Positions 27,001 through 42,000 are shown, numbered from the stretch's first letter. The stretch: 52,244 nucleotides of DNA from an uncultured Pseudomonadota bacterium (GCA_964429275.1 CAYSBJ010000002.1:124001-176244); one strand, 5' to 3'. Program-made: the numbers.

Positions 27001-30000
27001 TTATTCTCTTCCTTTGCTGCTTTTCTTTCGGCGGCTCGCCGTTCTTGACGGCTTTGCTTAGGGGCCTCGCCCCCAGCTGCCCGCCTTGCTGCTTCGGTGC
27101 TGCTTATCGGCTTTGCAGAGGCATCCCGTCGCGCGTTTTCTTCATCGCAGGCGGCAAGAAGGGTTTCTACTCTGGAAGGCTCCGTGAGTCGCTGGCCATT
27201 AACTATCTGCACTTCTCCTGATTTGCGATATAGTACCGATCCTAGTGGAACGGCTGGGTCGCTGGCAGTTGGCACCACATAGCCGTAACCGTCTTGATCA
27301 AGGTAGATGATAAAATCGAACGCTTTACCGCCATCTGGGCCATCCGTGAGGCCTTTTCTGCGGAAAACGGTCACTTCTATACTTTTTTCGGCGCCGTGTG
27401 CTTCCTGAAATCGATCGACCATTTTTGTGCGCAACATATCGATCACCATTAATCGCGCCGTTTCCTGGGGAGTTATAGTCGCCTCATGGTCGGCATGGTG
27501 TCGTGGTGCACTACCTGCTATCTCCTCAGCACTTATTGCAGGCCCTTCAAAATATTCTGCTGTGGCGGATAAGTATGATTTCATGGTTGGAAAATGACCA
27601 GGATCAGGCATGTTTGCGAGTAGTATTCCGAATGCGTAACGAAGGTCTGACTCAAAAGCACTCCCAAAGAGCTGAACGCTGGCACGCGCTTTATCTGATA
27701 ACCCCCCCCCCCAAGGCAAAGTCCGCTCCGCTACAGACTCCTGCAAGTCCAAGGAAAAAACTGAGTATTAACGCTATTTTGGTTTGATAATTGTTATTCA
27801 TATGACCACTATTTTTTTGGGGATTTTCGTGTGCTTCGTTTTGAGCGCCTGGGCGCTGGATACTTACTAAAACTGCGATAGGATGATACTTTTTTCTGAG
27901 GAGCCTGTCAAAGTCCCGGTGGCCGTTGCAAGCGAGAAAAAAGGCGATCACTTTTTACGGCGATCGCCTTAACTTTTAACGAATGTTTGGCCAGTGACCT
28001 TACATGCCGCGGATGTTTTCCTTAAGTTGCTTGCCTGGCTTGAAGCGAGGAATGCGAACTTCTGGAAGGGTGATACGTTCTTTGGTCGCTGGGTTGATGC
28101 CAGAGCGTGATGGACGACGAGAAACCCAGTAAGAACCGAAACCGGTAAGAGATACCTTGTTTCCTTCTTTGAGTTCTTTTTCAATGATGCTTGTAATCGA
28201 CGCAAGTACTCGTGCGATGTCTTTTTTGCTAAACGCAGTTTCTTCACTTACTTTTGTTATTAATTCACTTTTGTTCATAGTAGCCTTTCCGGGTATTCAA
28301 ACGGTTAAAAGTAACGCATCTGGCACGGAAATGTATTGTGATAACCGTGCTTTGTCAAGAGAAACAGAAATCTTTATTGCGGCAGCGATAGCTTTTTTGG
28401 GCTCTTGATATGCTATGCGTGCAAAGGGGGATCGTTTCACTTGTCAGCAATTTTCCCTTATTGAAATGTTTTTATGACTGTAGAGTGACGGATGAGGAAT
28501 GATCGTGTAGGATGGCGGCTCTTGCGGGGTTTTTTGCCTGCTGTAGCCAAGGAAGGAACGAGTTGTATGATGATCGATACCCACTGTCACCTCAATATTA
28601 TGGTAGATAAAAAGCCAGAAGAGCTTTTGCGCCAGGAACATTTCCCTGCTATAGAACACATTTTACGAGAAGCTGCTGCGTCTAATCTTTCTTATCTTAT
28701 TACCGTGGGTACCTCTATCCCTGAATCACAGAATTGTGTTGCAGTAGCAGATCGATATCAATCGTCTCCTATTGTTAAAGCTACCATTGGGGTGCATCCG
28801 TGTGATATCACCCAGCCGATTGAAGAGATTATTCGTGAGCTTGAGGCAATTGTTTTTTCTCCGACTGGAAAACATGTGGTAGCGATTGGTGAAATTGGTC
28901 TTGATTATTATCATCAGCCATACGACAAGGAACTTCAGGCGCAAGTGTTTATTGCGCAACTTGAGCTGGCCAAGAAGCATAATTTGCCGGTTGTTATCCA
29001 CATTCGTGATGCCGGAGCAGATGCATTGACGATTTTAGAAAAATATAAAAATGACCTTTGTGGTGTTATTCATTGTTTTTCGCTCGATTTGGCTGCTGCC
29101 GAGAGAGTTATTTCTTGGGGATGGTATATTGGCATTGATGGTCCAATTACCTACCCAAAAAACCATGATTTACGCTCTGTAGTTGCTACAGTGCCATTGA
29201 CTGGCATTGTGATGGAAACTGACGCCCCGTTCTTGCCGCCGCAGCATTTGCGGGGCAAAAGGAATAGTCCGGCTAATCTTGGCATTATTGCACAGGCTAT
29301 TGCTGATGCGCGAGGGATTTCACTTGCAGAAGTTGTTGCGCAGACAGCAAAAAATGCTCGGGCATTGTTTCGGCTTTAGAATTCTTCGGTTGTTCTTTTT
29401 ATAAGCTGTTCAGTGTACTCGCTAAGCCCTTCTTTTGATTCTACGCGTTTGAGGTGTTCGTAGGCATACTGAAGAACTCGTTCATCAAAGCCTTCTCGCG
29501 CCAGAAGGTCGAGGGCGATGACAGTAGCATTGATGCCGGGCTTGAGAGTGTATGGATAGGTGAACGACCCATCATTGTTTTTGTAAGCAGCAACGTGATG
29601 ATTTGTGAATTGGCTTGTTTGTTCATCACTAAGCTTGGTTAAATGAAAATAGTGGGTTGCTAGTATGAGCAGACTACTTGGGCACTTACCCAGTTCTTTG
29701 CCGATACCATAGGCTGCTGCAGCGCCAGCTGCTGGATTGGTACAACGAAACATCTCATCCATGACGGTAAGTGCGTATTCGTTTTCTTTTAGATGCATAA
29801 TTTGTGTGATTAGCTCATTGGCACGGCGAACTTCAGCTCGGTGTTGCGAGAGCGCATTACCGGCATCCTCAACGATATTGAGGTAGGTATTTAGGTGGGC
29901 AAACGGTGTTAAGTGTATTGCTTTAGCAGGTACGACGGTAATTGTTTGGGCGAAAAGGGAGGCTAGGACAATCCCCTTGATGATAGTTGATTTACCTCCG

Positions 30001-39000: not shown

Positions 39001-42000
39001 ATGCCGGCGAGTTCTTTAAAAAGCGTAGCTAGTTTTTTGCCTAATTGCGGACGTGCCATGAGATAGCGCGCAAGATTTTGGCGCCTTTCGAGTTCTTCCT
39101 GATTTGTTGAAGGCATAACTATCCACTTTGCTTGCGCCATTTTTCCGTTCAAAGAAGCGCCGCGATAAGTAGATTCCAGAATGGTATAGTCAGGGCGATC
39201 TATGTTGTAGAAAAAGAGGTTTAAGTCGGTAATAGATTTGGCATCAAGGCATGATGCTACCTCTTCAACATTTTTATCCCCCCCCAGAAATTGGAGGAGA
39301 ATGTTATGCATTTCATATGGAGAGAGTTTATATGCTGGGAATGAGACGCCATTTTTCCCTTTTTTTACTTCCTGAGTTGTGCGAACTGCGGGGAAGTTTT
39401 TGAGTATCTCTGCTCGCAGTAACTCATATGGCTGCGTATTTTGTCCCATAAGCGCCATGCTTAGTCCGCAGAAAAAGAGTGTCTTGGTAATAGTCTTTAA
39501 TGAGAAACGTTTCATGGTTATTCCTTTGTCGGTACGTAGCGGTCAGGGTGATTAAGAACATCACGCATTTTTTGTGTCATAACAAGTGGTAGACCTATTT
39601 TTTCAAGGAGGTCAGGGGCGATTTGTTGTGTTGTCGATCCTTCGTAGAGGCCGTATGGATACACAAATTCACCGTTTTCATCTTTTTCTACGATAACTTT
39701 CATATTTTTATAGAGATCTTTTCTATTCTTCGCCAGCGTTGTAAGACCAGGAAAGTGCGAGGCGAGGAGCAAGAGGCTATTTGAGTACATGCCAAGTTTT
39801 TTGGCAATTGCAACAGCAAGTGCTTCCCCTTCTATGCGTTCGGTACCAGTACAAATTTCATCCAAGATGGTAAAGCTGAATTGATTGCGTGGCAGTGTAT
39901 TTACGGTGCTAAGCAGCTCTTGTGCCCGGGTGATTTCAGCGCGGAAGAGTGATTGTTGCTTGCTCACGTCATCAGTGATATTGAGGTAAGTGTTGATGGT
40001 ATGAAATGGCGTAAATGAGAACGAACGTGCCGGCGCTACACCAAAGACCTGGCCAAAGATGCAGCATAAAGCAATTGCTTTCATGTGTGTTGATTTACCA
40101 CCTGCGTTAACGCCGCTTATCATGATGCTGCTTGGGTTATTATTGGTTCCTATAGCGATCGAATTGGTGACAACCGTTTTTTCATTGACCACTGGGTGAT
40201 GGAAATCTGTTGCATTGATAACAGGGGTCGATTGATTTTCTAAGATTTCTACGAAACAGTATGGCGCGTGCGACTGCTTTCGTTCTCGAAGCAGCTTTGC
40301 TACGGAAAGGTAGGCGTCAAGGTGGCCAATGAGAATCATGCCATCACTTGCTTTTGCAATAACTTTTTTTGCCTCAAGAAGAGCGTTCGCAACGTCCCCC
40401 TTGCCAGAAAAAACAGTTTTAAGTGTTCCTGGCATGCCCCCATCGGCCGGTGGTACAAATTTATTCTTGTCAAGGCGACGAGCTAATTCTTCAAGTTCGA
40501 CTTCTGTAGTGTCAGCGTATCGTTCACTTTGTACCCTTAATTCGCTTACCATTTGTACGGCTGGCAAGCTGTTGATCGCTGCTAATGCACGGAAAAGTGC
40601 GTTAACCGAAGAAAGGCGCCGTTGAATGTACGCTGCGGTCTGCGCGTCGCGGCGTAGTTGCCCAAATACGCTGATGGTAACAAACGTCATGTACGCGCCA
40701 AAAATACCTATAGCGGTTGGTATAAATGCTTTAAGCGTTTTATAATTGCTGCGATTCTTCATCTCATTGATGGCTTGAGTTACCTGAGATTCAATTTGCT
40801 GATCAGTTTCATGAGATCCGCGAAACCGCCGGAGCATTTTCCGACTCCTGCGAGCTGCACTGGCACAAGAGCCATCAAAATCAGTAATGAACTTAATGGC
40901 AGCAACGTCAAGAATTGTTGCGCTGAGTGCGCCTACGGCAAAGGTGAACATAGATAGACCAGCTTGCAAGTTTAGGGCGCCGCTAATGGCTTTTGATGAT
41001 TGTAAGATTCCTACTGTATTGTAGGAATTGAGAATATGGTCTTGTCGCATGCTGTCAGTGGCGAGCATAAGACTAATGAGGCTTTCTTCCTCTTGTGCCA
41101 CTGCTTTGATGATGGCACAGAAATCTTCAAATACATTGTCATCTTCGACAAGTAAGCGAATAAATTTTTGTCGTGCTTTGATGATATCAGCGTTTGTTTC
41201 TGGGTCTAAAAGCATACGAGTATAGATAAGCTCACCGATTGTTGTTTCGGTGCGCTTCGTGGCGCCTACGACGGTTTTGTGCCCGATGCGGCTGCTGTTG
41301 GTGAACAACTCCAGATTTTCCCATACATTACGATTGGTAACGGCAGTGCGTGCAATAGGGTCCGCGTTTGCGTTAAAAAATTTGAGCTTGCCCAGTGAGT
41401 TGAATATGAGGTCCGCCCGATCAAGTTTTGGAAGCGAATAAGGGTTTTTGGCAAAAGCGGCCTTAAAGAATCCCCAGAGTTGCTGGAAGCCATTTTGTAA
41501 TGCAGGAGCCGGCTTTAATTTTTCCAACTCTTTCTTTGTCAGCATGCTGGTGTAGAGTTTTTCGATATCCTGGTAACGATTATCGATTACAATAGCCGGT
41601 TTTTTGCTCGCAGTGGCACTCTTTGGCTTGTTAGCTGTGGTTGGCTTTTTTGGAGTTGCTGTTTTGTTGATGGTTGTTTTTCGCGTTGTTTTCTTTGGTG
41701 CTACCGGCAACAGAAGGCCAGGCATCAAAAGACAAAACGCGCTCAGCAGAGCGCGACGGCAGGTATGATTAAACATTTAAATTCCCTATAAAATGTAGCT
41801 ATAATCGACTTTTAGTGTAGGGGATTTTGCTTCAATTGGCAAATCAGGGTTACTTGCGGCGAGTTTTGGTGATCGATCGGCGGCGGGCTCCATACCAGGC
41901 TCGCATGAGCATTTCATAGGGGCCGTAGTCAAGGGCAATATGGCTTATGGCCCCCACTACAAAGTAGATATAGAGGTCTAGGGCATATGCGGTGTACTCC

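What a model noticed while it worked through the whole genome (the two positions that open the first line are those of the whole stretch)
29376..41725. Eight MutS-domain-V ATPase paralogs with signal-peptide-like N-termini, six of them in tandem
Besides the canonical MutS, the genome has eight 640-735-aa paralogs: six in tandem here, one at C2:384193-386352 and a fragment at C2:390107-391498. They keep only the MutS ATPase domain behind a ~350-520-aa N-terminal region that no family model matches. Seven of them begin with a signal-peptide-like segment. The family is widespread in Dependentiae. They may be exported ATPases acting in the host, though this is speculative.
Evidence so far: Pfam gives MutS_V only. 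MutS1, MutS2 and KamC models cover only the C-terminal ~230-290 residues, far below the cut-offs. Alignment, Walker A in 7 of 7 and Walker B DE in 6 of 7 full-length copies, and an N-terminal hydrophobic segment in 7 of 8 (KD 2.2-3.1) against 1.46 in the canonical MutS. Frames of 560-800 aa of this kind in at least 25 of 30 other genomes, by my reading of call 66. 0 occurrences of 'MutS' in three Dependentiae papers.
(Added by a program. Inside this text positions count along the whole contig: contig position 124,001 is position 1 of the stretch shown here. "Call 12" and the like, gene names such as g00115 and contig names such as C1 are that model's own, and its searches are not shown. The text may have been shortened before it was handed on; [...] marks where a part breaks off. 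The agent that wrote the report below was given it as the finding of a first reader that could run no searches.)

Follow-up and report, generated by a model that had tools for sequence, protein, structure and literature searches.

The report
Signal-peptide MutS8-like ATPase gene array
Six neighbouring genes of a host-dependent bacterium encode cut-down relatives of the DNA-repair protein MutS that carry export signals, belong to a family shared with giant viruses and other intracellular bacteria, and probably act outside the bacterial cytoplasm rather than in DNA repair.

Summary
The six tandem minus-strand genes exist as described, apart from the start of the sixth. The genome holds one more full copy and one internally deleted pseudogene. 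The claim that no family model matches the N-terminal region is wrong. Pfam MutS_III matches it weakly. An AlphaFold model (pLDDT 93.9) shows MutS core, lever helices, ABC ATPase and dimerisation helices (Z 30-32 to MutS). Domains I, II and IV are missing.

The family is not specific to Dependentiae. Its nearest relatives are giant-virus proteins of the same architecture; one structural match is named 'MutS subfamily 8'. It also includes the Cardinium proteins that Mann et al. 2017 assigned to MutS8 and noted to carry signal peptides.

Bacterial members almost always start with a hydrophobic, positively flanked N-terminus. None of 65 viral members does. The lever region is strongly hydrophobic in all viral members, in half of the bacterial ones, and in no canonical MutS examined. 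The lever tip is the fastest-evolving part. The ATPase residues are conserved.

Best reading: exported ATP-driven dimers that act on the host side, not mismatch repair. Export, cleavage, target and location are untested. This is a new, strongly expanded member of a known but uncharacterised family.

The parts
29376..31304 (-). copy 1 (642 aa): signal-like N-terminus MNRSFVLLIALFF..., MutS core/levers, intact ABC ATPase
   Evidence: (MutS_V 88 bits, MutS_III 33 bits)
31309..33279 (-). copy 2 (656 aa): same architecture with a degenerate ATPase (Walker B DA, switch His replaced by Asn, GIFESGKST P-loop). Probably binds but does not hydrolyse ATP.
   Evidence: MutS_V 47 bits; one of 8 rows of 135 that lack the switch His and, except P0065, also the Walker B Glu
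33317..35332 (-). copy 3 (671 aa), the copy that was modelled
   Evidence: MutS_V 113 bits; pLDDT 93.9, pTM 0.91
35276..35332 (-). copy 3 residues 1-19: hydrophobic signal-like segment
   Evidence: helix 2-11, pLDDT 70-74; 10-mer KD 3.1
35108..35275 (-). copy 3 residues 20-75: N-terminal extension carrying the family motif Y..I....L..F
34739..35107 (-). copy 3 residues 76-198: first half of the MutS core (domain III)
   Evidence: model 76-665 aligns to E. coli MutS 263-799; profile 76-201 aligns to MSH3 517-649
34340..34738 (-). copy 3 residues 199-331: lever helix A (199-236), hypervariable tip (237-263) and lever helix B (264-331). The tip takes the place of the DNA clamp, domain IV.
   Evidence: tip length 2-91 aa, majority frequency 0.06; tip 20% identical between same-genus orthologues
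33338..34339 (-). copy 3 residues 332-665: second half of the core, ABC ATPase (Walker A 473-480, signature Ser527, Walker B D557-E558, His592) and C-terminal helix pair
35329..37305 (-). copy 4 (658 aa); overlaps copy 3 by 4 bases
   Evidence: MutS_V 93 bits, MutS_III 34.9 bits, over the cut-off
37389..39515 (-). copy 5 (708 aa): long tip insert, with two hydrophobic stretches (KD about 1.8) flanking it
39518..41776 (-). copy 6 (752 aa): a basic K/T/P-rich linker follows the signal-like start, and two hydrophobic lever stretches (KD 1.7-1.9) flank the tip
   Evidence: (MutS_III 34.3 bits)

Best explanation
The six genes are members of a MutS8-like family. This is a MutS derivative reduced to the helical core (domain III), two long lever helices, the ABC-type ATPase (domain V) and the C-terminal dimerisation helices. 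The mismatch-binding domain I, the connector domain II and the DNA clamp domain IV are missing.

Each copy begins with a Sec-type hydrophobic N-terminus whose charge distribution predicts that the body of the protein is moved out of the bacterial cytoplasm.

Inferred mechanism: after export the protein reaches the host side, perhaps through one of the secretin systems or in vesicles. There ATP is available. It works as a dimer whose two composite ATP sites drive scissor-like lever movements, as in MutS. It does not close a clamp on DNA. Instead the lever tips, which are hypervariable and partly hydrophobic, engage a host membrane or a membrane-bound partner. Copy 2 has a dead catalytic site and may serve as the silent half of a heterodimer.

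Shown here: the architecture, the fold, family membership, conservation of the ATPase residues, conservation of the N-terminal hydrophobic segment in bacteria and its absence in viral homologues, hydrophobic levers, and rapid evolution of the tip.

Inferred only: export, dimerisation, site of action and target.
For: Architecture and fold
- The AF2 model of copy 3 has pLDDT 93.9.
- VIA-align gives Z 30-32 to MutS and MSH, with model residues ~76-665 aligned to E. coli MutS 263-799, and Z 25-27 to MutS2.
- Only 27 residues lie between the levers.

Family
- The N-terminal-only profile finds 920 cluster representatives at E <= 1e-10. Nearly all of the 150 listed are 600-800 aa.
- Family members score 346-708 bits. 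A clear gap follows before canonical MutS1 and MSH3 at about 170-188 bits.
- The profile matches 185 of 201 phylum genomes, with 1-8 matches each.

Link to MutS8
- BFVD structural matches include 'MutS subfamily 8 [Tetraselmis virus 1]' at E 1.6e-18 and TMt 0.68. The MutS7 of the same virus gives TMt 0.36.
- The profile matches Cardinium cBtQ1 at 1.3e-36. Mann et al. 2017 assign the Cardinium proteins to MutS8.

ATPase
- In 135 aligned members the Walker A Lys is kept in 135, the signature Ser in 135, the Walker B Glu in 128 and the switch His in 126.

Export signal
- 116 of 137 representatives have an N-terminal 10-mer with KD >= 2.0. 106 of those 116 have a net positive stretch before it (mean +2.1), against -0.26 after it.
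- 24 of 25 named bacterial relatives have the hydrophobic N-terminus.
- 0 of 65 viral homologues have it.
- The genome encodes signal peptidase I, three secretin-domain genes and several ATP/ADP translocases.

Levers
- The best 19-mer in the 270 aa before the ATPase reaches KD >= 1.6 in 0 of 86 canonical MutS1, 63 of 125 family representatives, 65 of 65 viral ORFs and 115 of 117 viral-type metagenome proteins.
- In the viral model these stretches are the lever helices H176-212 and H242-298.

Tip
- Tip length ranges from 2 to 91 aa.
- Same-genus orthologues are 20% identical in the tip and 74% in the ATPase.
Against: - No signal-peptide or topology predictor was available. My hydropathy rules are crude. 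Only 3 of the 8 own copies and 83 of 137 representatives pass my stricter rule, and 174 of 666 background ORFs also pass it.
- 74 of the 116 hydrophobic N-termini are long enough for an uncleaved membrane anchor.
- Sec reaches only the periplasm. No route across the outer membrane was shown for these proteins.
- Hydrophobic lever stretches could act as stop-transfer signals and hold the protein in the bacterial inner membrane.
- In four of the six window copies the best lever 19-mer is below 1.6 (1.29-1.57; for copies 1, 3 and 4; for copy 2, 1.52), so membrane insertion is doubtful for those copies.
- An earlier measure based on uncharged stretches did not separate the family from MutS1.
- The 86 control MutS1 sequences are close relatives of one another.
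- Mann et al. report no predicted signal peptide for the A. asiaticus homologues.
- No expression data were found.
Confidence: 0.4

Rival explanations
1. The proteins stay in the bacterial envelope. The N-terminus acts as a signal or anchor, the hydrophobic lever stretches insert into the inner membrane, and the MutS-like body faces the periplasm. There it uses host-derived ATP, which in an energy parasite must cross the periplasm on its way to the ATP/ADP translocases. The protein could sense or consume that ATP, or reshape the envelope.
For: The charge bias predicts an N-in orientation with the body outside. 74 of 116 N-terminal segments are of membrane-spanning length. Hydrophobic lever stretches are present in 63 of 125 representatives. 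The genome carries several TLC-type ATP/ADP translocase genes, one of them in this window.
Against: Viral homologues have no envelope to sit in and lack the N-terminal segment. Endozoicomonas carries signal-bearing members and, as far as I recall, is not known as an energy parasite. The rapid evolution of the tip and the multi-copy arrays fit host interaction better than a housekeeping role in the envelope.
Confidence: 0.25
2. The proteins are exported effectors, but their target is host DNA or chromatin. This is what Mann et al. proposed for the Cardinium proteins. The dimer would bind or clamp host nucleic acid.
For: MutS ancestry. Five of the six window copies have a pI of 8.2-9.4, and the viral homologues have a median of 8.7, against 5.8 for canonical MutS1. 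Copy 6 and 7 of 136 representatives carry a very basic K/T/P-rich stretch after the signal. The literature assumes DNA-repair roles for viral MutS8.
Against: Both DNA-contacting domains of MutS (I and IV) are absent. The tip that replaces the clamp is hypervariable and is acidic or neutral in copy 3. The levers of all 65 viral members are strongly hydrophobic, which does not fit a DNA clamp. The pI of the family is widely spread: median 7.6, with 49 of 136 at or below 6.5.
Confidence: 0.15
3. The proteins are cytoplasmic MutS paralogues with a DNA, recombination or ribosome-rescue role. On this view the hydrophobic N-terminus is not an export signal and reflects only the phylum-wide habit of signal-like N-termini.
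For: Databases name them 'mismatch repair protein MutS'. 44% of C. destructans CDS have predicted signal peptides. 325 of 674 ORFs of my proteome proxy pass my lax rule. The neighbouring genes are housekeeping genes: TatD, RNase H, HflX, DnaE.
Against: The N-terminal segment is kept in three bacterial phyla while its sequence drifts (28% identity between orthologues), and it is missing from exactly the viral members. All scores against the MutS1, MutS2 and KamC models are far below their cut-offs. There is no Smr, KOW, domain I or domain IV.
Confidence: 0.1

Closest known systems
MutS8 subfamily of giant viruses (Ogata et al. 2011, known to me only through citing papers; 'MutS subfamily 8' of Tetraselmis virus 1 in BFVD)
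   Same: Length of about 530-730 aa and the architecture MutS_III + MutS_V. The structure matches (E 1.6e-18, TMt 0.68). Viral contig proteins are 31-43% identical over core 2 plus the ATPase, and 66 ORFs match the N-terminal profile. In FastTree trees the viral proteins form one clade inside the family.
   Different: Viral members have no hydrophobic N-terminus (0 of 65). Their levers are far more hydrophobic (median best 19-mer 2.17 against 1.61). Most lack the N-terminal Y..I....L..F extension. They were single-copy in the loci I looked at.
Cardinium hertigii CAHE_0017 / CAHE_0267 and their cBtQ1 homologues (Mann et al. 2017, PMC5698495; passages and section 13 read)
   Same: Bacterial intracellular symbionts, MutS core plus ATPase, predicted signal peptide, proposed as secreted host-interaction candidates. 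The cBtQ1 and Cardinium sp. TP loci match the Dependentiae N-terminal profile at 1.3e-36 and 3e-34 and carry hydrophobic N-termini.
   Different: There are two copies per genome rather than arrays of six to eight. They fall in a different clade, with Amoebophilaceae and next to Endozoicomonas. Their levers are less hydrophobic (1.15-1.36).
MutS2 (ribosome-collision and recombination endonuclease)
   Same: It starts directly with the core domain, and model residues 81-671 align to MutS2 1-530 (Z 25-27). It has no domains I or II.
   Different: MutS2 has a clamp region, KOW and Smr domains and no signal peptide. The family profile scores 72-106 bits on MutS2 chains and 165-177 bits on MutS1 and MSH3. 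TIGR01069 gives 72-85 bits against a cut-off of 400.
Canonical MutS1 / MSH mismatch-repair proteins
   Same: Core, levers, ABC ATPase with the trans-acting signature Ser, and the C-terminal helix pair. These are the best sequence and structure matches among solved structures.
   Different: The family has no mismatch-binding domain I, connector domain II or clamp domain IV, and it carries an export-type N-terminus. NCBIfam scores are 46-130 bits against cut-offs of 480-642.
MutS3 (Lin, Nei and Ma 2007) and other short membrane-associated MutS_V proteins
   Same: The architecture is MutSac with or without MutSd. Proteins of 559-569 aa with an N-terminal membrane helix, and Pseudobutyrivibrio proteins of about 500 aa with hydrophobic levers, turned up as the next tier.
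   Different: These have the opposite charge bias at the N-terminal helix, which predicts a cytoplasmic body. They form a separate clade, and the Pseudobutyrivibrio proteins do not match the N-terminal profile. No named MutS3 sequence was available for a direct test.

Membership tests
MutS8-like family (giant-virus MutS8 plus the symbiont homologues) | Architecture limited to the MutS core (III) and ATPase (V), without domains I, II and IV and without HNH or Smr | tested here: met
   Pfam finds only MutS_III and MutS_V. The AF2 model and VIA alignment cover MutS 263-799 with a 27-residue tip in place of domain IV. The list of features is taken from the InterPro domains that Mann et al. quote. 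Ogata 2011 could not be read.
MutS8-like family (giant-virus MutS8 plus the symbiont homologues) | Groups with named MutS8 sequences rather than with MutS1, MutS2 or MutS7 | tested here: inconclusive
   In support: the BFVD match to 'MutS subfamily 8 [Tetraselmis virus 1]' has TMt 0.68 against 0.36 for that virus's MutS7. Giant-virus contig proteins nest inside the family clade (97-98 local support, FastTree only). Limitation: no sequence that carries the name MutS8 was in the tree, and the viral metagenome hits carry no such name.
MutS8-like family (giant-virus MutS8 plus the symbiont homologues) | Same family as the Cardinium proteins that the literature assigns to MutS8 | tested here: met
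   The N-terminal profile of the window copies matches Cardinium cBtQ1 (1.3e-36), Cardinium sp. TP (3e-34) and an Amoebophilaceae MAG (4.3e-40) over nearly its whole length. These sequences lie inside the family clade.
Canonical MutS1 (mismatch repair) | Mismatch-binding domain I, connector domain II and clamp domain IV | tested here: not met
   No PF01624, PF05188 or PF05190 match in any of the six at E <= 1. Canonical MutS hits carry all of these domains.
Canonical MutS1 (mismatch repair) | Score above the NCBIfam equivalog cut-offs (PRK05399 480 bits, TIGR01070 641.7 bits) | tested here: not met
   51.5-130.1 and 45.8-103.1 bits
MutS2 | C-terminal Smr endonuclease domain, and TIGR01069 at 400 bits or more | tested here: not met
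   No Smr match. 72.1-85.5 bits in 5 of 6 copies, and no TIGR01069 row for copy 2.
KamC (aminomutase reactivase ATPase) | NF052383 at 300 bits or more | tested here: not met
   22.9-78.6 bits, covering the ATPase part only
Sec-exported proteins with a cleavable signal peptide | Positive n-region, hydrophobic h-region, and a polar c-region with small residues at -3 and -1 | tested here: inconclusive
   The n- and h-regions are supported: 106 of 116 hydrophobic N-termini have a net positive stretch before them. The cleavage site was read only by eye (for example LTA/Q, LYA/S, LMG/Q). No dedicated predictor was available. 74 of 116 could be uncleaved anchors.
Integral membrane proteins with a helical hairpin | Two hydrophobic helices of about 20 residues flanking a short loop | tested here: inconclusive
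   Met by viral members (65 of 65 with a 19-mer at KD >= 1.6; these stretches are the lever helices). In the window, copies 5 and 6 reach 1.8-1.9 and copies 1-4 reach 1.29-1.57. No topology predictor and no model coordinates were available.
MutS3 (Lin et al. 2007) | Membership of the MutS3A or MutS3B clades | not tested
   No named MutS3 sequence could be obtained. Only the description of the architecture was read.

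The most novel reading that the evidence does not exclude
MutS8-type proteins, including the giant-virus 'hallmark repair gene' MutS8, may not be DNA-repair enzymes at all. They may be ATP-driven machines in which the MutS levers have become a membrane-inserted hairpin. Giant viruses would make them inside the host. Intracellular bacteria (Dependentiae, Amoebophilaceae, Endozoicomonas) would add a Sec signal, and Dependentiae would tone down lever hydrophobicity so that the protein can leave the bacterium. 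Both kinds of parasite would use them to reshape or tether host membranes. The hypervariable tip would be the part exposed to the host, which would explain why Dependentiae keep arrays of diverged copies.
Probability: 0.25. Interest if true: 0.85.

Novelty: new member of a known kind. Interest (0 to 1): 0.6.

Why it matters
Databases name these genes 'mismatch repair protein MutS'. That would inflate the apparent repair capacity of Dependentiae genomes: up to eight copies in a 1.2-Mb genome.

Placing them in the MutS8-like family links three groups that share protist and animal hosts: giant viruses, Dependentiae and other intracellular bacteria. Bacteria carry an export signal and viruses do not, which points to a site of action on the host side.

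No member of this family has a tested function. The loss of both DNA-binding domains and the hydrophobic levers make the usual 'repair' label testable, and possibly wrong, for the viral hallmark gene as well.

Tried and rejected
- The search for related loci with the six-copy N-terminal alignment failed because no stretch was conserved enough. I used other alignments later.
- A transmembrane hairpin as a family-wide feature of the bacterial members is not established. By the 19-mer KD >= 1.6 test on the lever region of 135 members, 67 have no such segment, 53 have one, 14 have two and 1 has three.
- A measure based on uncharged stretches did not separate the family from MutS1, where 64 of 86 have two or more such stretches over the whole protein. 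I dropped it in favour of the window-before-Walker-A measure.
- Copy 2 was missed by my Walker A pattern because its P-loop differs.
- Lipoprotein signal: no conserved Cys and no lipobox, read by eye.
- My stricter signal rule passes only 3 of the 8 own copies, so it is not a usable classifier.
- Ogata et al. 2011 could not be opened by DOI or by PMC id.
- Literature searches:
  - MutS + Dependentiae gave 2 papers, neither relevant.
  - MutS + Babela gave 4, none relevant.
  - MutS + signal peptide + endosymbiont + effector gave 16, of which 12 were listed. Of these I opened three (Mann et al. and two others). Only Mann et al. was relevant.
- The viral-type search returned 867 proteins, but none carried the name of an isolate or 'MutS8'.
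- The IQ-TREE 'quick' run did not finish in the time allowed, and one MAFFT run timed out. Both trees reported are FastTree trees. The two eukaryotic MSH3 rows and two thirds of the viral rows were left out of the second tree.
- No RNA holder was listed for the locus.
- Complex prediction was not used. A homodimer of ATPase domains would pass merely by its likeness to solved MutS dimers, and full-length dimers exceed the size limit.
- No supplementary files of any paper were consulted. Those of Deeg et al. 2019 and Mann et al. 2017 may list these genes.

Full report
**What is in the window**

Six open reading frames lie head to tail on the minus strand, with gaps of -4 to +84 bases:

| Copy | Coordinates | Length |
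|---|---|---|
| 1 | 29376-31304 | 642 aa |
| 2 | 31309-33279 | 656 aa |
| 3 | 33317-35332 | 671 aa |
| 4 | 35329-37305 | 658 aa |
| 5 | 37389-39515 | 708 aa |
| 6 | 39518-41776 | 752 aa |

Only the start at 41776 gives a signal-like N-terminus.
- Pfam MutS_V matches all six at 47-113 bits against a cut-off of 30.2.
- The copies are 22-29% identical to copy 1, so the duplications are old.
- The flanking genes are ordinary housekeeping genes: TatD (convergent), YdjM-like, RNase H, a CT398-like coiled-coil protein, HflX, DnaE, TrkA/TrkH and a class II tRNA synthetase.

**The rest of the genome**

- A whole-genome search gives 8 MutS_V matches: a canonical MutS in an 820-826-aa frame, the six copies, and a seventh full copy at C2:384193-386352.
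- The 'fragment' near the contig end is an internally deleted pseudogene. A 465-aa frame covers profile positions 96-419, and a 96-aa frame in another phase covers positions 581-655. The Walker A to Walker B part is lost.
- Walker A is present in 7 of 7 full copies and Walker B DE in 6 of 7. Copy 2 has DA and has also replaced the switch His by Asn.

**The N-terminal region is not an unknown fold**

- Pfam MutS_III matches all six copies at E 2.6e-8 to 0.017 and passes the 34.1-bit cut-off in copies 4 and 6.
- I modelled copy 3 with a 135-sequence alignment. The model has pLDDT 93.9 and pTM 0.91.
- Foldseek ranks MutS and MSH chains first, at E about 1e-16.
- VIA-align gives Z 30-32 over 430-460 aligned residues, rmsd 2.9-5.3. 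Model residues ~76-665 correspond to E. coli MutS 263-799. MutS2 cores follow at Z 25-27, with model 81-671 aligned to MutS2 1-530.

The protein is therefore built as follows:
- a signal-like segment (residues 1-19);
- a 55-residue extension with a conserved Y..I....L..F motif;
- the MutS core;
- two long lever helices (199-236 and 264-331) joined by a tip of only 27 residues, where MutS1 has its DNA clamp;
- the second half of the core;
- the ABC ATPase;
- the C-terminal helix pair.

Domains I, II and IV are absent. So are Smr and HNH. NCBIfam MutS1, MutS2 and KamC models match only the C-terminal part and stay far below their cut-offs. A family profile scores 165-177 bits on MSH3 and MutS1 chains and 72-106 bits on MutS2 chains.

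**A large, discrete family**

- A profile of the N-terminal regions alone (406 positions) finds 1775 cluster representatives at E <= 1e-3, 920 at <= 1e-10 and 80 at <= 1e-30. Nearly all of the 150 listed are 600-800 aa and match the whole profile.
- With the full-length profile, family members score 346-708 bits. The next tier, canonical MutS1 and MSH3 plus some 560-aa proteins, scores about 170-188 bits.
- Within the phylum, 185 of 201 sampled genomes match. That is 163 of 177 good-quality genomes and 115 of 120 genera, with 1 to 8 matches per genome. At most 8 candidates per genome were scored, and 16 genomes had no match.
- Several genomes in that table show runs of adjacent matches. Tandem arrays are therefore common.
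- A same-genus genome, G043, has the same six genes in the same order next to TatD.

**The family is wider than Dependentiae and already has a name in print**

Viral relatives:
- A scan of viral contigs returned 80 loci, mostly giant-virus MAG contigs of 18-45% GC. They are 30-43% identical to copy 3 over the second core half and the ATPase.
- 66 ORFs of 535-735 aa from these loci also match the N-terminal profile, the best at 1.8e-31.
- I scanned 41 flanking ORFs from 17 of these loci. They include an NCLDV major capsid protein, TBP, a class II aaRS, a D5-like region and, in 5 loci, an adjacent Erv1/Alr gene. The contigs are therefore viral.
- The ESM Atlas lists Nucleocytoviricota and Bacteroidota clusters of the same length as the closest look-alikes, with scores of 0.97-0.99. 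These are leads only.
- In BFVD the copy 3 model matches a Yasminevirus MutS-family protein (E 6e-26) and 'DNA mismatch repair ATPase MutS subfamily 8 [Tetraselmis virus 1]' (E 1.6e-18, TMt 0.68). That virus's MutS7 gives TMt 0.36.

Published precedent:
- Mann et al. 2017 (PMC5698495; passages and section 13 read) describe two Cardinium hertigii proteins with MutS core and C-terminal domains that 'affiliate with subfamily MutS8'.
- They note that both proteins, and the cBtQ1 homologues, 'somewhat surprisingly' carry predicted signal peptides. The A. asiaticus homologues do not.

Bacterial relatives outside Dependentiae:
- I scanned one genome per species with a viral alignment and then scored the best 29 loci with the Dependentiae N-terminal profile. 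25 are family members, at E 4e-10 to 5e-41.
- They come from Babeliales/TM6, Cardinium sp. TP, Cardinium cBtQ1, an Amoebophilaceae MAG, a Cytophagales MAG, three Endozoicomonas genomes, MAGs labelled Pseudomonadota and unnamed MAGs.

Trees (FastTree only):
- The family forms one clade (local support 97-98), apart from MutS1 and from a group of short proteins with an N-terminal membrane helix.
- The viral proteins form one clade (100). It is sister (99) to a bacterial subgroup that contains named Babeliales.
- Cardinium, Amoebophilaceae and Cytophagales group together, next to Endozoicomonas.
- The window copies fall into two clades, {2, 4, 6} and {1, 3, 5}. Each includes sequences from other genomes.
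- My label 'Dep' for the unnamed representatives was an assumption. One of them (P0139) groups with Cardinium.
- I could not read Ogata et al. 2011. The MutS8 assignment therefore rests on the BFVD name, on Mann et al. and on Hingamp et al. 2013 (passages).

**The N-terminal segment**

- Of 137 full-length representatives that start with Met, 116 have a 10-mer with KD >= 2.0 in the first 50 residues. Of those 116, 106 have a net positive stretch before it (mean +2.1), against -0.26 in the 20 residues after it. 'Before' exceeds 'after' in 98. This is the orientation that sends the body of the protein across the membrane.
- The short 560-aa outgroup proteins show the opposite bias.
- 24 of the 25 named or unnamed bacterial relatives also start this way.
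- None of 65 viral ORFs does.
- Between same-genus orthologues the segment is only 28% identical yet stays hydrophobic. Signal peptides behave in this way.

Caveats:
- 74 of the 116 are long enough to be uncleaved anchors.
- My lax rule passes 112 of 137 representatives but also 325 of 674 background ORFs. My strict rule passes 83 of 137 against 174 of 666, and only 3 of the 8 own copies.
- Deeg et al. 2019 report signal peptides on 44% of C. destructans CDS and on 78% of its ankyrin proteins (passages read).
- The genome has signal peptidase I, three secretin-domain genes and several TLC ATP/ADP translocase genes. I did not work out which systems the secretins belong to.

**ATPase, levers and tip**

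ATPase residues in the 135-member alignment:

| Residue | Conserved in |
|---|---|
| Walker A Lys | 135 of 135 |
| Signature Ser | 135 of 135 |
| Walker B Asp | 133 of 135 |
| Walker B Glu | 128 of 135 |
| Switch His | 126 of 135 |

- Eight members, copy 2 among them, have lost the His, and most of these have also lost the Glu. This is the pattern of a silent subunit in an asymmetric dimer.
- The conserved trans-acting signature Ser and the retained C-terminal helix pair imply a MutS-like dimer. That is an inference.

Tip:
- The tip between the levers is the most variable part. Its length is 2-91 aa and its majority-residue frequency is 0.06, against 0.52 in the ATPase.
- Between same-genus orthologues, pooled identity is 20% in the tip, 49-54% in the levers, 62-65% in the core, 74% in the ATPase and 82% in the C-terminal helices.

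Lever hydrophobicity, measured as the best 19-mer in the 270 residues that end 60 residues before Walker A:

| Group | Members with KD >= 1.6 | Median |
|---|---|---|
| Canonical MutS1 (closely related set) | 0 of 86 | 1.38 |
| Family representatives | 63 of 125 | 1.61 |
| Viral ORFs | 65 of 65 | 2.17 |
| Viral-type metagenome proteins | 115 of 117 | 2.11 |

- In a viral model (pLDDT 81.1) the hydrophobic stretches are the lever helices H176-212 and H242-298, on either side of a low-confidence tip.
- In the window, copies 5 and 6 reach 1.82-1.86 and copies 1, 3 and 4 reach 1.29-1.57. Copy 2 has a 19-mer of 1.52.
- An earlier measure did not separate the groups.

**Reading**

The proteins are MutS-derived ABC ATPase dimers that have lost every part of MutS that touches DNA or MutL. 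They have kept the ATP-driven lever apparatus. They have gained, in bacteria only, an N-terminus that predicts export.

The viral sisters are made in the host cytoplasm and have levers hydrophobic enough to span a membrane. I therefore think the most likely site of action of the bacterial proteins is the host side. There the lever tips would engage a host membrane or a membrane-bound partner, and ATP binding and hydrolysis would switch the lever geometry. I give this 0.4.

Rivals:
- A periplasm-facing envelope protein that uses host ATP in transit to the translocases (0.25).
- An exported protein that acts on host DNA, as Mann et al. suggested (0.15). The basic pI of five window copies and the K/T/P-rich linker of copy 6 speak for it. 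The missing DNA-binding domains speak against it.
- A cytoplasmic repair-type role (0.1).

No function has been tested for any member, and I found no expression data.

**Novelty**

The kind is known. It is the MutS8 subfamily, and signal-bearing symbiont members were noted in 2017.

The following appear to be new, as far as my searches reach:
- the near-universal, multi-copy presence in Dependentiae;
- the structural account of what was lost;
- the bacteria-versus-virus contrast in the N-terminus;
- the hydrophobic levers.

Ogata et al. 2011 and all supplementary files were not seen and may already cover some of these points.

Noticed in passing
window 1397-2740 (-), and C1:344200-354495 of the genome: TLC-type ATP/ADP translocase genes: one in this window and a cluster of about four or five on contig C1 (10 matched stretches in all). 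This is the mark of an energy parasite.
   Followed up: partly
genome contigs C4-C7: Four short contigs (4-12.5 kb) have 60-70% GC, against 46% for the three large contigs. They are probably contaminants of the bin.
   Followed up: no
window 31309-33279 (-): Copy 2 belongs to a subgroup (8 of 135 aligned members) that has lost the switch His and mostly the Walker B Glu, but keeps the Walker A Lys and the signature Ser. It may be the catalytically silent half of a heterodimer. The same-genus orthologue also has ATNF.
   Followed up: partly
window 41600-41710 (-), residues ~23-60 of copy 6: A K/T/P-rich, strongly basic low-complexity linker (net charge +9 in 30 residues) follows directly after the signal-like segment. 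7 of 136 family representatives have a comparably basic stretch.
   Followed up: partly
G000:C2:389881-391504: The eighth copy is a pseudogene with an internal deletion of the ATPase core. The N-terminal 465 aa are still an open frame with a signal-like start.
   Followed up: yes
L011, L017, L022, L043, L049 (giant-virus contigs): The viral MutS8-like gene lies next to an Erv1/Alr thiol oxidase gene in 5 of the 17 viral loci whose flanks I scanned. L011, L017 and L022 also have a family 2 glycosyltransferase on the other side.
   Followed up: no
L113, L115, L116 (Pseudobutyrivibrio); P0172, P0173, P0178, P0204: Other short MutS_V proteins look membrane-bound in different ways. Pseudobutyrivibrio proteins of about 500 aa have a strongly hydrophobic stretch before the ATPase (KD 2.3-2.4). 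Proteins of about 560 aa have an N-terminal membrane helix with a cytoplasm-facing charge bias. Membrane-associated MutS relatives may be a wider, unstudied theme.
   Followed up: partly
L089, L094, L097, L105: Contigs of MAGs labelled 'uncultured Pseudomonadota' carry family members that sit among Babeliales sequences in the tree. Either the MAG labels are wrong or the genes were transferred.
   Followed up: no
window 42921-43652 (-): A 243-aa protein matches the CT398-like coiled-coil hairpin domain, named after a chlamydial protein. It lies just upstream of the array, next to an RNase H gene.
   Followed up: no
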